Source: Naegleria gruberi
Taxonomy: Eukaryota
Assembly (NCBI GenBank): GCA_000004985.1
Contig: GG739219.1
Length of the DNA stretch: 3,525 bases
Strand: one strand, 5' to 3'
Both the position numbers and the translations under genes were made by a program. The notes beneath the pieces were generated by a model. That model made no database searches. It was not told the DNA's origin and was given only the letters and a program-made list of their open reading frames with translations. The number at the start of each line of letters is the position of its first letter. Positions within the stretch are counted from its first letter, which is position 1. Of this stretch, positions 1 to 3,525 are shown one piece after another.

Positions 1-7
1 CTTTGTT

Positions 8-190
8 TTAATCAATTGTAATAATTGATGAATCGTTAGAATTAGAATGAGAGTGAGTTCCTGTTGATGATGATGAAGATTTATCAACGTGTGATTGTTG
101 TTGTTGTTCATCACCTTGATCTAATTCATCCTCCTCCTCTTGATCTTCCTTTCGGTTAGAAGAACAAACAACCATAGCTTTGAGAAACAT
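8..190 (-). CDS. Complete small ORF (ATG 190-188 ... TAA 10-8) encoding a 60-aa acidic, Gln/Ser-rich low-complexity peptide; hypothetical protein, possibly spurious
   Basis: The ORF is uninterrupted with its stop inside the window, so it is not a truncated larger gene unless spliced. No GT donor is seen near the stop. The start context on the minus strand is A-rich (aaaaaaaATG), which is yeast-like. The composition comes largely from (GAT)n, (CAA)4 and (GAG)3 tracts. It lies divergent to RPS17. There is no recognisable domain. Confidence 0.3.
   Translation of the reverse strand: MFLKAMVVCSSNRKEDQEEEDELDQGDEQQQQSHVDKSSSSSTGTHSHSNSNDSSIITID
66..140. repeat. Cluster of short trinucleotide tracts: gatgatgatga (66-76), ttgttgttgttgtt (105-118), cctcctcctct (130-140)
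   Basis: Read directly from the sequence. These tracts encode the D/E, QQQQ and EEE runs of the small minus-strand ORF. Confidence 0.7.
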
Positions 191-843
191 TTTTTTTATC
201 GGAAAGAGAAGTTTGATGACTTTTGGATTAATATGAATGTGTTATTGTCATCTGTTTTGCTGACTTGAGTATTCTTGGTTATGATCATGCCAATTGTTTA
301 GAATCATCATTAATTGTGTTTTGTTGCTGGGTGTTAATATCTTTACCTTCTTGCTTTTGGTACCAATCAATGATGAACGGTATTATGATTTATAAAGAGT
401 GGAATTATGTGGTTTTACACCTCTCTTGTGTAGAAGATTATTGGTAGCAATACCATTGAGCAATTATTACATCATCCAATATTGCAAAGCCTTCTTCTTT
501 GTCTAATAATTTTTTTAATTATTGTTAAATGGTGATGATGAAATTTCTTGTTATTGTTTCATAGTAAAGCAAATGATGAAGTGTTTGTTGTTAACTTAGT
601 TTCGGAATGACATCATACAAATCGGTATGAGATCGTCGAGTAGAATGTTATAATTCTTTTGTTGTGTGTGGTATCAATGCAATTTTGAAAGCAGGCAAGA
701 AGGTCAAAAAATATTCATTGTAAAATTCACTAATGTGGTTGCCAACCAGAAATTTGCATAANATTTGTTGAAAAAAAAATCATTAATTCGTAAGTATCAC
801 TCACGTTAATGCGAGATTGCTAAACACCTCATCTTACTAGAAA
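191..843. promoter_or_regulatory. Divergent AT-rich intergenic region between the small minus-strand ORF and RPS17, presumed to hold the RPS17 promoter and 5'UTR; includes an A9 tract at 771-779 and T8 at 190-197
   Basis: There is no long ORF with a recognisable product. The assignment rests on position upstream of a ribosomal-protein start codon. A poly(dA:dT) tract sits ~65 bp upstream of the ATG, as is typical of yeast RP promoters. No canonical TTAGGG/CCCTAA (Tbf1) or CACGTG (Cbf1) sites were found in the readable part. Confidence 0.45.
791..840 (+). other. Candidate short 5'UTR intron of RPS17: GTAAGTAT donor at 791-798, branch-like tgctaaa (819-825) or ttactag (834-840), and TAG acceptor at 838-840 four nt before the ATG
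   Basis: GTAAGTAT matches the fungal 5' splice-site consensus exactly. Ribosomal-protein genes in yeasts frequently carry 5'-proximal introns. However, there is no perfect TACTAAC, and a 50-nt intron is very short for Saccharomycotina. This call is speculative. Confidence 0.15.
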
Positions 844-871
844 ATGGGTAAAGTCAGAACCAAGACTGTCA
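844..871 (+). CDS. RPS17: 40S ribosomal protein S17e (eS17), N-terminal 9 codons only (MGKVRTKTV); the CDS continues into the N block
   Basis: The translation MGKVRTKTV matches the universally conserved eS17 N-terminus MGRVRTKTVK with a single R3K substitution. The start context aaaATGg is yeast Kozak-like. Codon choice (GGT, AGA, ACC, AAG, GTC) is typical of highly expressed yeast genes. The next visible base (a at 871) is compatible with the expected Lys codon. Only 28 nt are readable, so confidence is capped. Confidence 0.75.
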
Positions 872-2651
872 NNNNNNNNNNNNNNNNNNNNNNNNNNNNN
901 NNNNNNNNNNNNNNNNNNNNNNNNNNNNNNNNNNNNNNNNNNNNNNNNNNNNNNNNNNNNNNNNNNNNNNNNNNNNNNNNNNNNNNNNNNNNNNNNNNNN
1001 NNNNNNNNNNNNNNNNNNNNNNNNNNNNNNNNNNNNNNNNNNNNNNNNNNNNNNNNNNNNNNNNNNNNNNNNNNNNNNNNNNNNNNNNNNNNNNNNNNNN
1101 NNNNNNNNNNNNNNNNNNNNNNNNNNNNNNNNNNNNNNNNNNNNNNNNNNNNNNNNNNNNNNNNNNNNNNNNNNNNNNNNNNNNNNNNNNNNNNNNNNNN
1201 NNNNNNNNNNNNNNNNNNNNNNNNNNNNNNNNNNNNNNNNNNNNNNNNNNNNNNNNNNNNNNNNNNNNNNNNNNNNNNNNNNNNNNNNNNNNNNNNNNNN
1301 NNNNNNNNNNNNNNNNNNNNNNNNNNNNNNNNNNNNNNNNNNNNNNNNNNNNNNNNNNNNNNNNNNNNNNNNNNNNNNNNNNNNNNNNNNNNNNNNNNNN
1401 NNNNNNNNNNNNNNNNNNNNNNNNNNNNNNNNNNNNNNNNNNNNNNNNNNNNNNNNNNNNNNNNNNNNNNNNNNNNNNNNNNNNNNNNNNNNNNNNNNNN
1501 NNNNNNNNNNNNNNNNNNNNNNNNNNNNNNNNNNNNNNNNNNNNNNNNNNNNNNNNNNNNNNNNNNNNNNNNNNNNNNNNNNNNNNNNNNNNNNNNNNNN
1601 NNNNNNNNNNNNNNNNNNNNNNNNNNNNNNNNNNNNNNNNNNNNNNNNNNNNNNNNNNNNNNNNNNNNNNNNNNNNNNNNNNNNNNNNNNNNNNNNNNNN
1701 NNNNNNNNNNNNNNNNNNNNNNNNNNNNNNNNNNNNNNNNNNNNNNNNNNNNNNNNNNNNNNNNNNNNNNNNNNNNNNNNNNNNNNNNNNNNNNNNNNNN
1801 NNNNNNNNNNNNNNNNNNNNNNNNNNNNNNNNNNNNNNNNNNNNNNNNNNNNNNNNNNNNNNNNNNNNNNNNNNNNNNNNNNNNNNNNNNNNNNNNNNNN
1901 NNNNNNNNNNNNNNNNNNNNNNNNNNNNNNNNNNNNNNNNNNNNNNNNNNNNNNNNNNNNNNNNNNNNNNNNNNNNNNNNNNNNNNNNNNNNNNNNNNNN
2001 NNNNNNNNNNNNNNNNNNNNNNNNNNNNNNNNNNNNNNNNNNNNNNNNNNNNNNNNNNNNNNNNNNNNNNNNNNNNNNNNNNNNNNNNNNNNNNNNNNNN
2101 NNNNNNNNNNNNNNNNNNNNNNNNNNNNNNNNNNNNNNNNNNNNNNNNNNNNNNNNNNNNNNNNNNNNNNNNNNNNNNNNNNNNNNNNNNNNNNNNNNNN
2201 NNNNNNNNNNNNNNNNNNNNNNNNNNNNNNNNNNNNNNNNNNNNNNNNNNNNNNNNNNNNNNNNNNNNNNNNNNNNNNNNNNNNNNNNNNNNNNNNNNNN
2301 NNNNNNNNNNNNNNNNNNNNNNNNNNNNNNNNNNNNNNNNNNNNNNNNNNNNNNNNNNNNNNNNNNNNNNNNNNNNNNNNNNNNNNNNNNNNNNNNNNNN
2401 NNNNNNNNNNNNNNNNNNNNNNNNNNNNNNNNNNNNNNNNNNNNNNNNNNNNNNNNNNNNNNNNNNNNNNNNNNNNNNNNNNNNNNNNNNNNNNNNNNNN
2501 NNNNNNNNNNNNNNNNNNNNNNNNNNNNNNNNNNNNNNNNNNNNNNNNNNNNNNNNNNNNNNNNNNNNNNNNNNNNNNNNNNNNNNNNNNNNNNNNNNNN
2601 NNNNNNNNNNNNNNNNNNNNNNNNNNNNNNNNNNNNNNNNNNNNNNNNNNN
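872..2651. other. Run of 1,780 N (masked or unresolved sequence); must contain the rest of RPS17 and the C-terminal ~85-90% of the GT22 mannosyltransferase gene
   Basis: This is directly visible. The content is inferred only from the two ORFs that enter the block from either side. Confidence 1.
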
Positions 2652-2817
2652 CCCATGGTAATTTATGTGGATGATCGGGAAAGTGCAATGAATGAGCAAT
2701 TTCAATTCCCTGATAATATTCATCAGCACTAAAGTATGTTGTGATGAAGAAACTACTCATCAATCGGAAAGTAATCAAAAAGATGATAAGAAAAAGGCTT
2801 GCCCCCAAAACTTTCAT
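2652..2817 (-). CDS. GPI10: GT22-family ER mannosyltransferase (PIG-B/Gpi10-like GPI mannosyltransferase III; Smp3/PIG-Z is the alternative), N-terminal 55 codons; ATG at 2817-2815 and the CDS continues into the N block
   Basis: Minus-strand translation is MKVLGASLFLIIFLITFRLMSSFFITTYFSADEYYQGIEIAHSLHFPDHPHKLPW. It has an N-terminal hydrophobic signal-anchor. The motif T-Y-F-x-A-D-E-Y-Y-Q-x-I-E-x-A-H corresponds to the conserved GT22 N-terminal motif of the PIG-B/Gpi10 and PIG-Z/Smp3 branch. From memory these are 'FFQADEFWQALEPAH' in S. cerevisiae Gpi10 and 'FVPDEYWQSLEVSH' in human PIG-B. The trailing 'LPWE' corresponds to the family's 'LTWEW'. The A7-ATG context is yeast-like. The family call is solid. 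The specific member is less certain and the symbol is tentative. Confidence 0.6.
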
Positions 2818-2885
2818 TTTTTTCTGATTTAATAAAATTTTGGGCGTAGTTTCAAGTTTGAAAATAAGGAGAGCAAAAGAATAAT
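2818..2885 (-). terminator. 68-bp spacer between the Tma64-like stop and the GT22 ATG, containing yeast 3'-end-formation-like elements on the minus strand (TTTTAT, ATTAAA, then CAGAAAAAAA directly abutting the downstream ATG)
   Basis: The minus strand reads TAAATTATTCTTTTGCTCTCCTTATTTTCAAACTTGAAACTACGCCCAAAATTTTATTAAATCAGAAAAAAAATG. This has efficiency-element-like and positioning-element-like motifs. Their function is inferred from the general yeast polyadenylation model and is not proven. Confidence 0.3.
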
Positions 2886-3508
2886 TTACTTCTTTTTCTT
2901 CTTCTTATTGGTCTTATCATTAACTAGAATGAATCTAACTGGGAAACCATAATCCTGTGTCAGAATTTGTTCAATCATGGCAATGTGATTTCCCTGGATT
3001 GTAATATCTGCTTCTGGGATACCTCCTCCAACAGATGGCATATTTGAAGTGTTTGTCTTGATTGAGGCACTACATTTGTTTTTCAATTTCTTGACAAGAT
3101 CTTCAAAAGCAACACAATTCAAATCAGAATTATTGATCAGCAGCTTGACACCATTGACCTTTGTAATGACCTTATTTCCCATGATGGCTTCTGCTTCAAC
3201 AGAGATTCCTGGACAAGCTCCTTTGTAGATGGAGATTTCATTTTCATTTCCATCATAGACAACTGCATAGTGATCGACCATTTCATTGAGAAGGCAATCA
3301 ATGATATTTTGAACTGGCACAACTGTATCAAGTTTTACAGGTTGAGATTTTCCTGATTTGAAAACTTTGGTATAGATTAACTCGTTAATTTTGACCTTTC
3401 CATTATTGAATAATTTAGCATCTTGCGAATACTTGATGAGACATTCACGAACTTCCTTCTCTGTGAATAATTTATCCTTTCCAAAAGATCCACCAAATAT
3501 GGGAGGGG
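2886..3508 (-). CDS. TMA64: eIF2D/ligatin (yeast Tma64)-type translation initiation/recycling factor, C-terminal ~207 codons (SWIB/MDM2-like segment plus C-terminal SUI1/eIF1-like domain); 5'-truncated at the clone or vector junction, stop TAA at 2888-2886
   Basis: The frame is open from the window end to the stop. The track's 'M' at 3320 is really GTG (Val) inside a longer frame. Translation is ...IFGGSFGKDKLFTEKEVRECLIKYSQDAKLFNNGKVKINELIYTKVF... (a SWIB-like pattern) ...YKGACPGISVEAEAIMGNKVITKVNGVKLLINNSDLNCVAFEDLVKKLKNKCSASIKTNTSNMPSVGGGIPEADITIQGNHIAMIEQILTQDYGFPVRFILVNDKTNKKKKKK*. The 'IQGN' core, the following hydrophobic helix, the 'Y..P' motif and the basic tail align with the C-terminal SUI1 domain of human eIF2D as I recall it ('...IQGNQVHHLGWLLLEEYQLPRKHIQGLEKALKPGKKK'). 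Confidence 0.8.
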
Positions 3509-3525
3509 GGATCCTCAGAGTCGAC
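3509..3525. other. Cloning-vector polylinker remnant: BamHI GGATCC (3509-3514), XbaI-like TCAGAG with one T missing relative to TCTAGA (3515-3520), SalI GTCGAC (3520-3525); preceded by a G-run (3501-3510)
   Basis: This is a near-exact match to the pUC/pBluescript MCS segment GGATCCTCTAGAGTCGAC. The insert junction is at a GATC, consistent with Sau3AI-into-BamHI cloning. The minus-strand reading frame runs through it, which is an artefact. Confidence 0.6.

What the first reader, a model, noticed from the sequence alone, without database searches (positions are those of the whole stretch)
872..2651. Half of the window is an N block; its content can only be inferred from the flanks
1,780 consecutive N occupy 50% of the window. 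This is not a standard 100-N scaffold gap, so it looks like a deliberately masked or size-estimated block. From the flanks it must contain the remaining ~127 codons of RPS17 on the plus strand and essentially the whole catalytic body of a GT22 mannosyltransferase on the minus strand, arranged convergently. Anything else in the block, including any novel element, cannot be seen. The long X-containing ORFs in the track (829-2817, 837-2729, 844-2661, 869-2656) are artefacts of translating N.
Basis: seen in the sequence. Interest (0 to 1): 0.5.

Follow-up and report, generated by a model that had tools for sequence, protein, structure and literature searches.

The report
Assembly gap in a two-read scaffold
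The 1,780-N block is most likely an ordinary size-estimated sequencing gap, the unread middle of one plasmid clone in the 2010 Sanger draft genome of the amoeba Naegleria gruberi, and it almost certainly hides the rest of two housekeeping genes rather than anything new.

Summary
In detail: N runs from 872 to 2651, which is 1,780 bases or 50% of the window.

**What the window is.** It is a complete 3,525-bp scaffold of the Naegleria gruberi NEG-M Sanger assembly. Its only annotated protein, NAEGRDRAFT_60091, matches at 100% and sits on a 3,525-bp contig. The flanks are 871 and 874 bases, the length of single Sanger reads. The left flank has one miscalled base (N at 762). The right end carries 19 bases of untrimmed pUC polylinker. 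I read the scaffold as the two end reads of one ~3.5-kb clone, with the N block standing for the unread middle.

**What the flanks encode.**
- The plus-strand start MGKVRTKTV matches only eS17 N-termini in the PDB.
- The minus-strand 55-residue start is a GT22 mannosyltransferase of the PIG-B/GPI10 type.

**What the gap probably holds.** A metagenome contig 97.8% identical to the gap edge continues the GT22 gene about 584 bases into the equivalent of the gap. The predicted remainders of both genes total 1,817-1,916 bases, which already exceeds the nominal 1,780. No spare room is left at that size, and the true gap is probably slightly longer.

**Limits.** The eS17 remainder and the junction between the two genes could not be recovered.

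**Verdict.** This is an artefact of assembly. Interest is low.

The parts
1..871 (+). Left contig of the scaffold. At 871 bases it is the length of one Sanger read, probably the forward end read of one plasmid clone. GC content is 31.6%.
   Evidence: It has no overlap with the right flank.
762..762 (.). Single ambiguous base call (N), 110 bases from the gap-side end of the left contig. This fits the low-quality tail of a single read.
844..871 (+). Start of the eS17 (RPS17) gene: ATG, codons 1-9 (MGKVRTKTV), and the first base (A) of codon 10.
   Evidence: All 23 PDB matches to the 9-mer are eS17 chains; 22 align from residue 1 and one from residue 56 of a longer chain.
872..2651 (.). Size-estimated scaffold gap of 1,780 N: the unread middle of the clone insert. 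Inferred content is the rest of eS17 (+) and the rest of a PIG-B-type GT22 gene (-), arranged convergently.
   Evidence: for the count. for provenance. for the proxy sequence of the right-hand ~584 nt. for the length budget.
2652..2817 (-). Start of the GT22 (PIG-B/GPI10-type GPI mannosyltransferase) gene: ATG at 2817-2815, 55 codons, and one base (G) of codon 56. It includes the beginning of the conserved N-terminal 'long motif' (YFSADEYYQGIEIAH...PW).
   Evidence: Pfam PF03901 at 27.8 bits against a 23.8 cut-off. A 95%-identical protein, P0002, continues the sequence as ...PWEWDAKHSLRGYLHP. Related hits are named 'phosphatidylinositol glycan class B' by their source.
2818..2885 (.). 68-nt spacer between the stop of the SUI1-domain gene and the GT22 start. 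Both genes are on the minus strand.
   Evidence: The same gene order, with a 4-nt spacer, is seen in relative L002.
2886..3506 (-). 3' part of a SUI1-domain protein gene, with its stop codon at 2886-2888. The reading frame stays open up to the vector junction, so the gene is cut off by the end of the clone. The public model NAEGRDRAFT_60091 covers only 2886-3281.
   Evidence: Pfam SUI1 at 43.4 bits against a 25.5 cut-off. P0001 matches at 100%.
3507..3525 (.). Untrimmed cloning-vector polylinker, GGGGATCCTC-AGAGTCGAC (SmaI half-site, BamHI, XbaI with one T missing, SalI). It marks the start of the reverse end read.
   Evidence: Aligned 19 of 20 to the pUC18/19 multiple cloning site. That site string was verified as present at 100% in public plasmid records.

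Best explanation
The N block is a size-estimated scaffold gap, not a biological feature. The window is one entire small scaffold of the JGI Sanger whole-genome-shotgun assembly of Naegleria gruberi NEG-M. It consists of the two end reads of a single ~3.5-kb pUC plasmid clone. The assembler linked the two reads as mates and filled the unread middle with N, sized from the library's insert length. I infer that the hidden DNA holds the remaining ~121-134 codons of the ribosomal protein eS17 gene on the plus strand. On the minus strand I infer the remaining ~470-490 codons, plus at least one tiny intron, of a PIG-B/GPI10-type GPI mannosyltransferase (GT22). The two genes would meet tail to tail with almost no spacer.
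For: Shown by tool results:
- N occupies 872-2651, which is 1,780 bases. The flanks are 871 and 874 bases.
- The SUI1-domain ORF in the right flank is 100% identical to N. gruberi NAEGRDRAFT_60091 (EFC35459.1 / XP_002668203.1). The only contig on record for that protein is 3,525 bp, the window's exact length.
- The assembly is Sanger-based (GCA_000004985; PMC8040595). It has 1,977 contigs in 784 scaffolds, so it contains more than a thousand gaps (PMC6125883).
- Window 3507-3525 is pUC polylinker from the SmaI half-site to SalI, with one base dropped. There is a single N at 762. Both fit single-read coverage.
- The two flanks do not overlap each other.
- MGKVRTKTV matches only eS17 chains among PDB sequences: 23 of 23 hits.
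- The 55-residue minus-strand start passes the Pfam GT22 cut-off.
- ENA metagenome contig L001 is 97.8% identical over window 2652-2834. It continues the GT22 frame for 96 more codons, then a probable 37-nt GTATGT...TAG intron, then at least 104 more codons. Its spliced product scores 125 bits on GT22 profile positions 2-199 of 414.
- A more distant relative, L002, keeps the same order of SUI1 gene followed by GT22 gene.
- No N. gruberi protein with this GT22 N-terminus exists in the 5.8-billion-cluster or 1.84-billion-representative collections. That is expected if the gene was never readable in the deposited record.

Inferred:
- The length budget for the two gene remainders is 1,817-1,916 nt against the nominal 1,780 nt.
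Against: - I could not read the deposited GenBank record, the read placement or the JGI library table. 'Two reads of one clone' is inferred from lengths, the vector remnant and the stray N.
- The eS17 gene is identified from nine residues and one base only. No proxy sequence was found for its continuation.
- L001 loses all similarity to the window from 17 nt upstream of the GT22 ATG. It therefore comes from a different arrangement or is a chimeric metagenome contig, and it is a proxy rather than the same genome.
- The predicted content exceeds the nominal gap by 37-136 nt before any 3' untranslated regions are counted. Either the gap estimate is somewhat short or one of the length assumptions is off.
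Confidence: 0.88

Rival explanations
1. The block is known sequence that whoever prepared the window deliberately masked with N, hiding a feature that is present in the public record.
For: The descriptions of the collection tools say that a few stretches in one collection are masked as runs of N. 1,780 is not a conventional placeholder length.
Against: - If the record held real sequence, the N. gruberi annotation should include the GT22 and eS17 gene models on this scaffold.
- No N. gruberi protein carries the 55-residue GT22 N-terminus. The only model on the 3,525-bp contig is the truncated SUI1 protein.
- The flanks are read-sized, carry a vector remnant and contain a miscalled base. That is typical of an unfinished two-read scaffold, not of a masked finished region.
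Confidence: 0.04
2. The two flanks are not truly adjacent in the genome, because of a chimeric clone or a wrong mate-pair link. In that case the gap does not contain a convergent eS17 / GT22 pair.
For: - This is an orphan scaffold of apparently single-read depth.
- No second copy of the locus is detectable among annotated proteins.
- The close relative L001 has a different sequence upstream of the GT22 gene, so local rearrangement or chimerism occurs around this gene in at least one data set.
Against: - The summed remainders of the two genes (1,817-1,916 nt) come close to the independent mate-pair size estimate of 1,780 nt. That would be a coincidence if the link were false.
- The right-flank arrangement of SUI1 gene then GT22 gene is confirmed in L002.
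- Chimeric inserts are a small minority in sheared-DNA plasmid libraries (my own general knowledge).
Confidence: 0.05
3. The gap holds the two gene remainders plus something extra, such as a repeat, a mobile element or sequence toxic to E. coli. That extra content would explain why the locus was poorly covered.
For: The locus was captured by apparently one clone only, and its middle was never read. The actual insert size of an individual clone is unknown, so extra content cannot be excluded by length.
Against: - At the nominal size there is no room, because the two genes already need 37-136 nt more than 1,780.
- The first ~584 nt of proxy sequence from L001 is plain GT22 coding sequence plus a 37-nt intron.
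- Nothing unusual was found in the flanks: no tRNA, no Rfam family, and only two trivial tandem repeats.
Confidence: 0.04

Closest known systems
Size-estimated (mate-pair spanned) scaffold gaps in Sanger whole-genome-shotgun assemblies
   Same: There is a run of N of non-round length between two contigs. The flanking contigs are of single-read length. A vector remnant sits at the outer end. The scaffold total of ~3.5 kb fits a small-insert plasmid library. The source assembly is Sanger-based, with 1,977 contigs in 784 scaffolds.
   Different: Nothing differs in kind. This is an extreme case in which the whole scaffold appears to be one clone, so half of it is gap.
eS17 / RPS17 (Pfam Ribosomal_S17e)
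   Same: The N-terminus MGKVRTKTV is followed by a codon starting with A, which fits the conserved Lys. The best PDB matches are the kinetoplastid eS17 sequences MGKIRTKTVK.
   Different: Only nine residues are visible. The remaining ~121-134 residues lie in the gap and were not recovered.
PIG-B / Gpi10 (GPI mannosyltransferase III, glycosyltransferase family 22)
   Same: The Pfam GT22 match is above the cut-off. The N-terminal motif YF.ADEYYQG.E.AH...PWEW resembles the YF.PDEYWQS.EVAH...TWEW of the related hits. Two of those hits are named 'phosphatidylinositol glycan class B' by JGI/IMG. [quoted passage not shown]
   Different: The HKEXRF short motif and the whole C-terminal half lie in the gap and beyond the end of proxy contig L001. 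The motif position that is Pro in the related hits is Ala here (ADEYYQ). I did not discriminate this gene from the sister Smp3/PIG-Z subfamily with a tree.
SUI1-domain translation factors (eIF1 / DENR / eIF2D-ligatin group)
   Same: A C-terminal SUI1 domain scores 43.4 bits against a 25.5 cut-off. More than 95 residues lie upstream of that domain in an open frame, as in the longer members of the group.
   Different: No solved structure matches by sequence at E <= 0.01. The N-terminal part lies beyond the end of the clone, so the subfamily is not assigned.

Membership tests
Size-estimated scaffold gap of a Sanger shotgun assembly | The window belongs to a draft assembly built from paired Sanger reads and containing many gaps. 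| tested here: met
   A 100% protein match to N. gruberi NAEGRDRAFT_60091 on a 3,525-bp contig. The assembly is listed as Sanger, GCA_000004985. It has 1,977 contigs in 784 scaffolds.
Size-estimated scaffold gap of a Sanger shotgun assembly | The flanking contigs and the overall span are consistent with mate reads of one clone library. | tested here: met
   The flanks are 871 and 874 b. The insert span is 3,506 b up to a pUC SmaI-site junction. The polylinker remnant matches 19 of 20 positions.
Size-estimated scaffold gap of a Sanger shotgun assembly | The deposited record itself annotates an assembly gap at these coordinates. | not testable with these tools
   None of the searchable collections holds the N. 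gruberi nucleotide record. Look-ups of window proteins found no contig.
eS17 (Ribosomal_S17e) | Conserved N-terminus MG[RK][VI]RTKTVK at residue 1. | tested here: met
   All 23 PDB sequences matching the 9-mer are eS17. 22 align from residue 1 and one from residue 56 of a longer chain. Each individual E-value is weak (0.57 or more) because the query is only 9 residues.
eS17 (Ribosomal_S17e) | A full S17e domain of about 120-143 residues. | not testable with these tools
   It lies in the gap. The metagenome DNA scan for the coding start found nothing.
Glycosyltransferase family 22 (Pfam PF03901) | A match to the family profile above the curated cut-off. | tested here: met
   The 55 visible residues score 27.8 bits against 23.8. 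The spliced product of the 97.8%-identical relative scores 125.4 bits on profile positions 2-199 of 414.
PIG-B / Gpi10 subfamily of GT22 | The N-terminal 'long motif' (PMC3906172). | tested here: inconclusive
   The start of the motif is visible and resembles the PIG-B-named hits. No alignment against curated PIG-B versus PIG-Z/ALG9/ALG12 sets, and no tree, was made.
PIG-B / Gpi10 subfamily of GT22 | The C-terminal HKEXRF 'short motif' (PMC3906172). | not testable with these tools
   The region lies inside the gap and beyond the end of proxy contig L001, which reaches only profile position 199 of 414.
SUI1 domain proteins (Pfam PF01253) | A match to the SUI1 profile above the curated cut-off. 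| tested here: met
   43.4 bits against 25.5, covering profile positions 3-77 of 77.

The most novel reading that the evidence does not exclude
The unread interval is longer than estimated and contains, besides the two gene remainders, an extra element that made this locus hard to clone or assemble. Candidates are a repeat, a mobile element or sequence toxic to E. coli. That would explain why three conserved genes are represented in the N. gruberi draft only by this orphan two-read scaffold.
Probability: 0.04. Interest if true: 0.25.

Novelty: not a real feature. Interest (0 to 1): 0.04.

Why it matters
Biologically it matters very little, because the block is a hole in a draft assembly.

There is a small practical point. 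Three conserved genes appear to be represented in the N. gruberi NEG-M reference only by this fragment: eS17, a PIG-B-type GPI mannosyltransferase and a SUI1-domain factor. No N. gruberi protein with the GT22 N-terminus, and no longer version of the SUI1 protein, was found in the large protein collections. I could not check whether eS17 is annotated elsewhere in the assembly.

Comparative studies that score gene presence or absence from this proteome could therefore wrongly call PIG-B, and perhaps eS17, absent in N. gruberi. The assembly's BUSCO completeness is lower than that of N. lovaniensis and N. fowleri (PMC6125883).

The scaffold also still carries 19 bases of vector, which is a minor data-quality flag.

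Tried and rejected
**Initial guess.** On first reading I guessed a Candida/yeast library clone, from the AT-rich sequence, the RPS17 start and the polylinker. The 100% match to an N. gruberi protein overturned that.

**Attempts to recover the hidden sequence, all without result:**
- Exact-protein look-ups of P0001 and of three complete ORFs from the window flanks.
- A word-index homology search with the 55-residue GT22 start.
- A JGI metagenome scan with the SUI1 fragment: 545 pattern matches, none confirmed.
- A JGI metagenome scan with a degenerate 28-nt pattern for the eS17 coding start.

**What did work.** An exhaustive HMMER search with the 55-residue peptide found two ENA metagenome contigs, L001 and L002, which served as proxies.

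**Other dead ends:**
- BLAST of the window's last 126 bases against plasmids gave only chance hits, because the vector piece is too short. I instead verified the pUC polylinker string separately and aligned it locally.
- PDB sequence searches gave nothing for the SUI1 fragment and only a spurious His-tag match for the GT22 proxy.
- The Fritz-Laylin 2010 genome paper is not held. The library and assembler details (JGI pUC18 3-kb library, Jazz assembler, ~8x coverage) therefore rest on my own knowledge, not on a citation.
- There were no literature hits for PRJEB11402 or for N. gruberi S17 locus tags.
- tRNA, Rfam and tandem-repeat scans of the flanks found nothing of note.

**Not tried.** The prokaryote genome and viral collections were not scanned, because they are irrelevant for a eukaryotic locus.

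Full report
**1. The observation**

The window has one N run at 872-2651. It is exactly 1,780 bases, half of the 3,525-base window. There is also one isolated N at 762.

**2. Where the window comes from**

The right flank carries, on the minus strand, an open frame ending at a stop at 2886-2888. It contains a SUI1 domain (Pfam 43.4 bits against a 25.5 cut-off).

A search of the 5.8-billion-cluster protein collection with this fragment returned a single protein. It is 100% identical and named 'hypothetical protein NAEGRDRAFT_60091 [Naegleria gruberi]' (EFC35459.1 / XP_002668203.1 / D2W643_NAEGR). It has been seen on one contig of 3,525 bp, which is the exact length of the window. The window is therefore one complete small scaffold of the N. 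gruberi NEG-M draft genome.

That assembly (GCA_000004985) is listed as Sanger-sequenced (PMC8040595). It has 1,977 contigs in 784 scaffolds and 35% GC (PMC6125883), so it contains well over a thousand scaffold gaps. The flanks here are 31.6% and 35.2% GC.

**3. Why the block is a size-estimated mate-pair gap**

- The two flanks are 871 and 874 bases, the length of single Sanger reads. They do not overlap each other.
- The last 19 bases of the window, GGGGATCCTCAGAGTCGAC, align to the pUC18/19 polylinker GGGGATCCTCTAGAGTCGAC with one T missing. I wrote that polylinker string from memory and then confirmed it at 100% identity in public plasmid records.
- The vector piece starts at the GGG half of the SmaI site. 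That is where blunt, sheared DNA is cloned.
- Vector at the outermost end, with an error in the first bases, is what the start of a reverse end read looks like. The lone N at 762 lies 110 bases from the inner end of the left flank, where a forward read's quality decays.
- The insert span implied by the scaffold is 3,506 bases.

Taken together, the scaffold looks like one plasmid clone read from both ends, with the unread middle written as N at a length taken from the library's insert size.

This last step is inference. I could not open the deposited record or the read layout. The genome paper is not in the held library. That JGI used ~3-kb pUC18 libraries and an assembler that sizes gaps from mate pairs is my own knowledge.

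The alternative, that someone masked known sequence afterwards, is unlikely. If the bases were in the public record, the annotation would include the two genes that enter the block. Yet no N. gruberi protein with the GT22 N-terminus exists in either large protein collection, and the only model on the contig is the truncated SUI1 protein.

**4. What enters the gap from the left**

An ATG at 844 opens MGKVRTKTV, and base 871 is an A. I padded the 9-mer with X and searched it against all PDB chain sequences. It matched 23 distinct sequences, and every one is ribosomal protein eS17. 22 align from residue 1, and one aligns from residue 56 of a longer chain. The best matches are the kinetoplastid sequences MGKIRTKTVK. 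Each E-value alone is weak (0.57 or more) because the query is tiny, but the unanimity is convincing. The trailing A fits the conserved Lys-10 codon.

eS17 chains in the PDB are 120-143 residues long, and 130-143 is the range I used for the budget. About 121-134 codons should therefore lie inside the gap. I could not obtain any proxy for them: a degenerate 28-nt scan of JGI metagenomes found nothing.

**5. What enters the gap from the right**

An ATG at 2817 on the minus strand opens 55 codons, MKVLGASLFLIIFLITFRLMSSFFITTYFSADEYYQGIEIAHSLHFPDHPHKLPW, followed by one base (G). This passes the Pfam GT22 cut-off (27.8 against 23.8 bits, profile positions 2-40 of 414).

An exhaustive HMMER search of 1.84 billion representatives gave 24 hits. 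Two are close:
- P0002 is 95% identical over all 55 residues and 151 aa long.
- P0003 is 70% identical and 147 aa long.

Both come from short ENA metagenome contigs (L001 of 892 bp and L002 of 984 bp).

L001 is 97.8% identical to window 2652-2834 at the DNA level. It continues the frame past the gap edge as ...PWEWDAKHSLRGYLHPMIL... for 96 more codons. A stop and a frame change then follow. They are resolved by removing a 37-nt GTATGT...TAG segment at L001 542-578, which restores the conserved ...TNWFNLYCGVRTFSNTME.... The spliced 237-residue product scores 125 bits on GT22 profile positions 2-199 of 414.

So in a very close relative the gene does not stop just inside the gap. About 584 bases of the hidden interval can be read by proxy as plain GT22 coding sequence plus a tiny intron, or possibly a frameshift error in a low-coverage contig.

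L002 shows the end of a SUI1-domain gene that is 71% identical in protein to the window's. Four bases later comes the GT22 start. The right-flank gene order is therefore conserved.

**6. Which GT22**

The more distant hits carry YF.PDEYWQS.EVAH...TWEW. The two that have a source name are called 'phosphatidylinositol glycan class B'. PigB/Gpi10 proteins add the third mannose of the GPI anchor core. [quoted passage not shown]

The window shows only the start of the long motif, with Ala where the related hits have Pro. The short motif would lie in the gap. I therefore call the gene PIG-B-type as the best reading. Subfamily membership is not fully tested.

**7. Does anything else fit?**

The end of the L001 product aligns to about residue 255 of a 563-residue full-length homologue. 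That predicts a protein of about 526-546 residues.

- GT22 remainder plus the 37-nt intron: about 1,452-1,512 nt.
- eS17 remainder: about 365-404 nt.
- Sum: 1,817-1,916 nt, which is 37-136 nt more than the nominal 1,780 before any 3' untranslated region or spacer is counted.

The agreement with an independent mate-pair estimate supports the convergent two-gene reading and argues against a false link. It also implies that the real interval is somewhat longer than written, which is normal for an estimate taken from a library mean. At the nominal size there is no room for a further element. Because the true size of this one clone is unknown, an extra element cannot be strictly excluded, and I put it at about 4%.

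**8. Verdict**

The finding is a correctly described but ordinary assembly gap.

The one mildly useful consequence concerns eS17, the PIG-B-type enzyme and the full-length SUI1-domain factor. For the latter two, no other annotated N. gruberi copy was found, so this fragment appears to be their only trace in the reference. Whether eS17 is annotated elsewhere could not be tested. 'Absence' calls from that proteome should therefore be treated with care. Interest is low, and the feature is not biological.

Noticed in passing
window 3507-3525: 19 bases of untrimmed pUC-type polylinker (SmaI half-site, BamHI, XbaI with one T missing, SalI) remain at the end of a deposited genome scaffold. This is vector contamination.
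   Followed up: yes
window 2886-3506 (-): The public gene model NAEGRDRAFT_60091 (131 aa, window 2886-3281) starts at an internal Met. The reading frame stays open for 75 more codons up to the vector junction, so the real SUI1-domain protein is longer and is cut off by the end of the clone. No solved structure matches it by sequence.
   Followed up: partly
window 762: A single ambiguous base (N) lies in otherwise clean sequence, 110 bases from the gap-side end of the left flank. It is consistent with single-read coverage.
   Followed up: no
L001 1-125 against window 2835-2960: Metagenome contig L001 is 97.8% identical to the window from 17 nt upstream of the GT22 ATG onward. Further upstream it has no similarity at all, and no SUI1 gene end is there. 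The more distant L002 does keep the SUI1-then-GT22 order. L001 is either a rearrangement in that strain or a chimeric metagenome contig.
   Followed up: partly
L002 774-984 (-): Directly after the truncated GT22 ORF, the opposite strand of L002 encodes ...FYFGRIHQRGPIEVMNYLRNEHIANPNRTMVIHLLVPCHHTPGYAYL. This resembles the C-terminal HQRG...PCHSTP region of PIG-B-type proteins (compare P0007 and P0024) but is in inverted orientation. It is probably a fold-back or chimeric assembly artefact. It remains unexplained.
   Followed up: no
L001 542-578: A 37-nt GTATGT...TAG segment must be removed to keep the GT22 frame and restore the conserved TNWFNLYCGVRTFSN block. That would be a very short spliceosomal intron. 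A frameshift error in the low-coverage contig is the alternative.
   Followed up: partly
window 1-843: About 650 bases upstream of the eS17 start (191-843) hold no ORF longer than 60 aa. A 60-aa acidic, Ser-rich, low-complexity ORF on the minus strand (8-190) has only a sub-threshold Pfam match (DUF1179, 15.4 bits against a 25 cut-off). It is not on record as a called gene.
   Followed up: partly
whole window / N. gruberi proteome: No N. gruberi protein with the GT22 (PIG-B-type) N-terminus, and no longer version of the SUI1 protein, exists in the large protein collections. These genes seem to be represented in the reference only by this fragment. That could produce false 'gene absent' calls in comparative studies.
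   Followed up: partly
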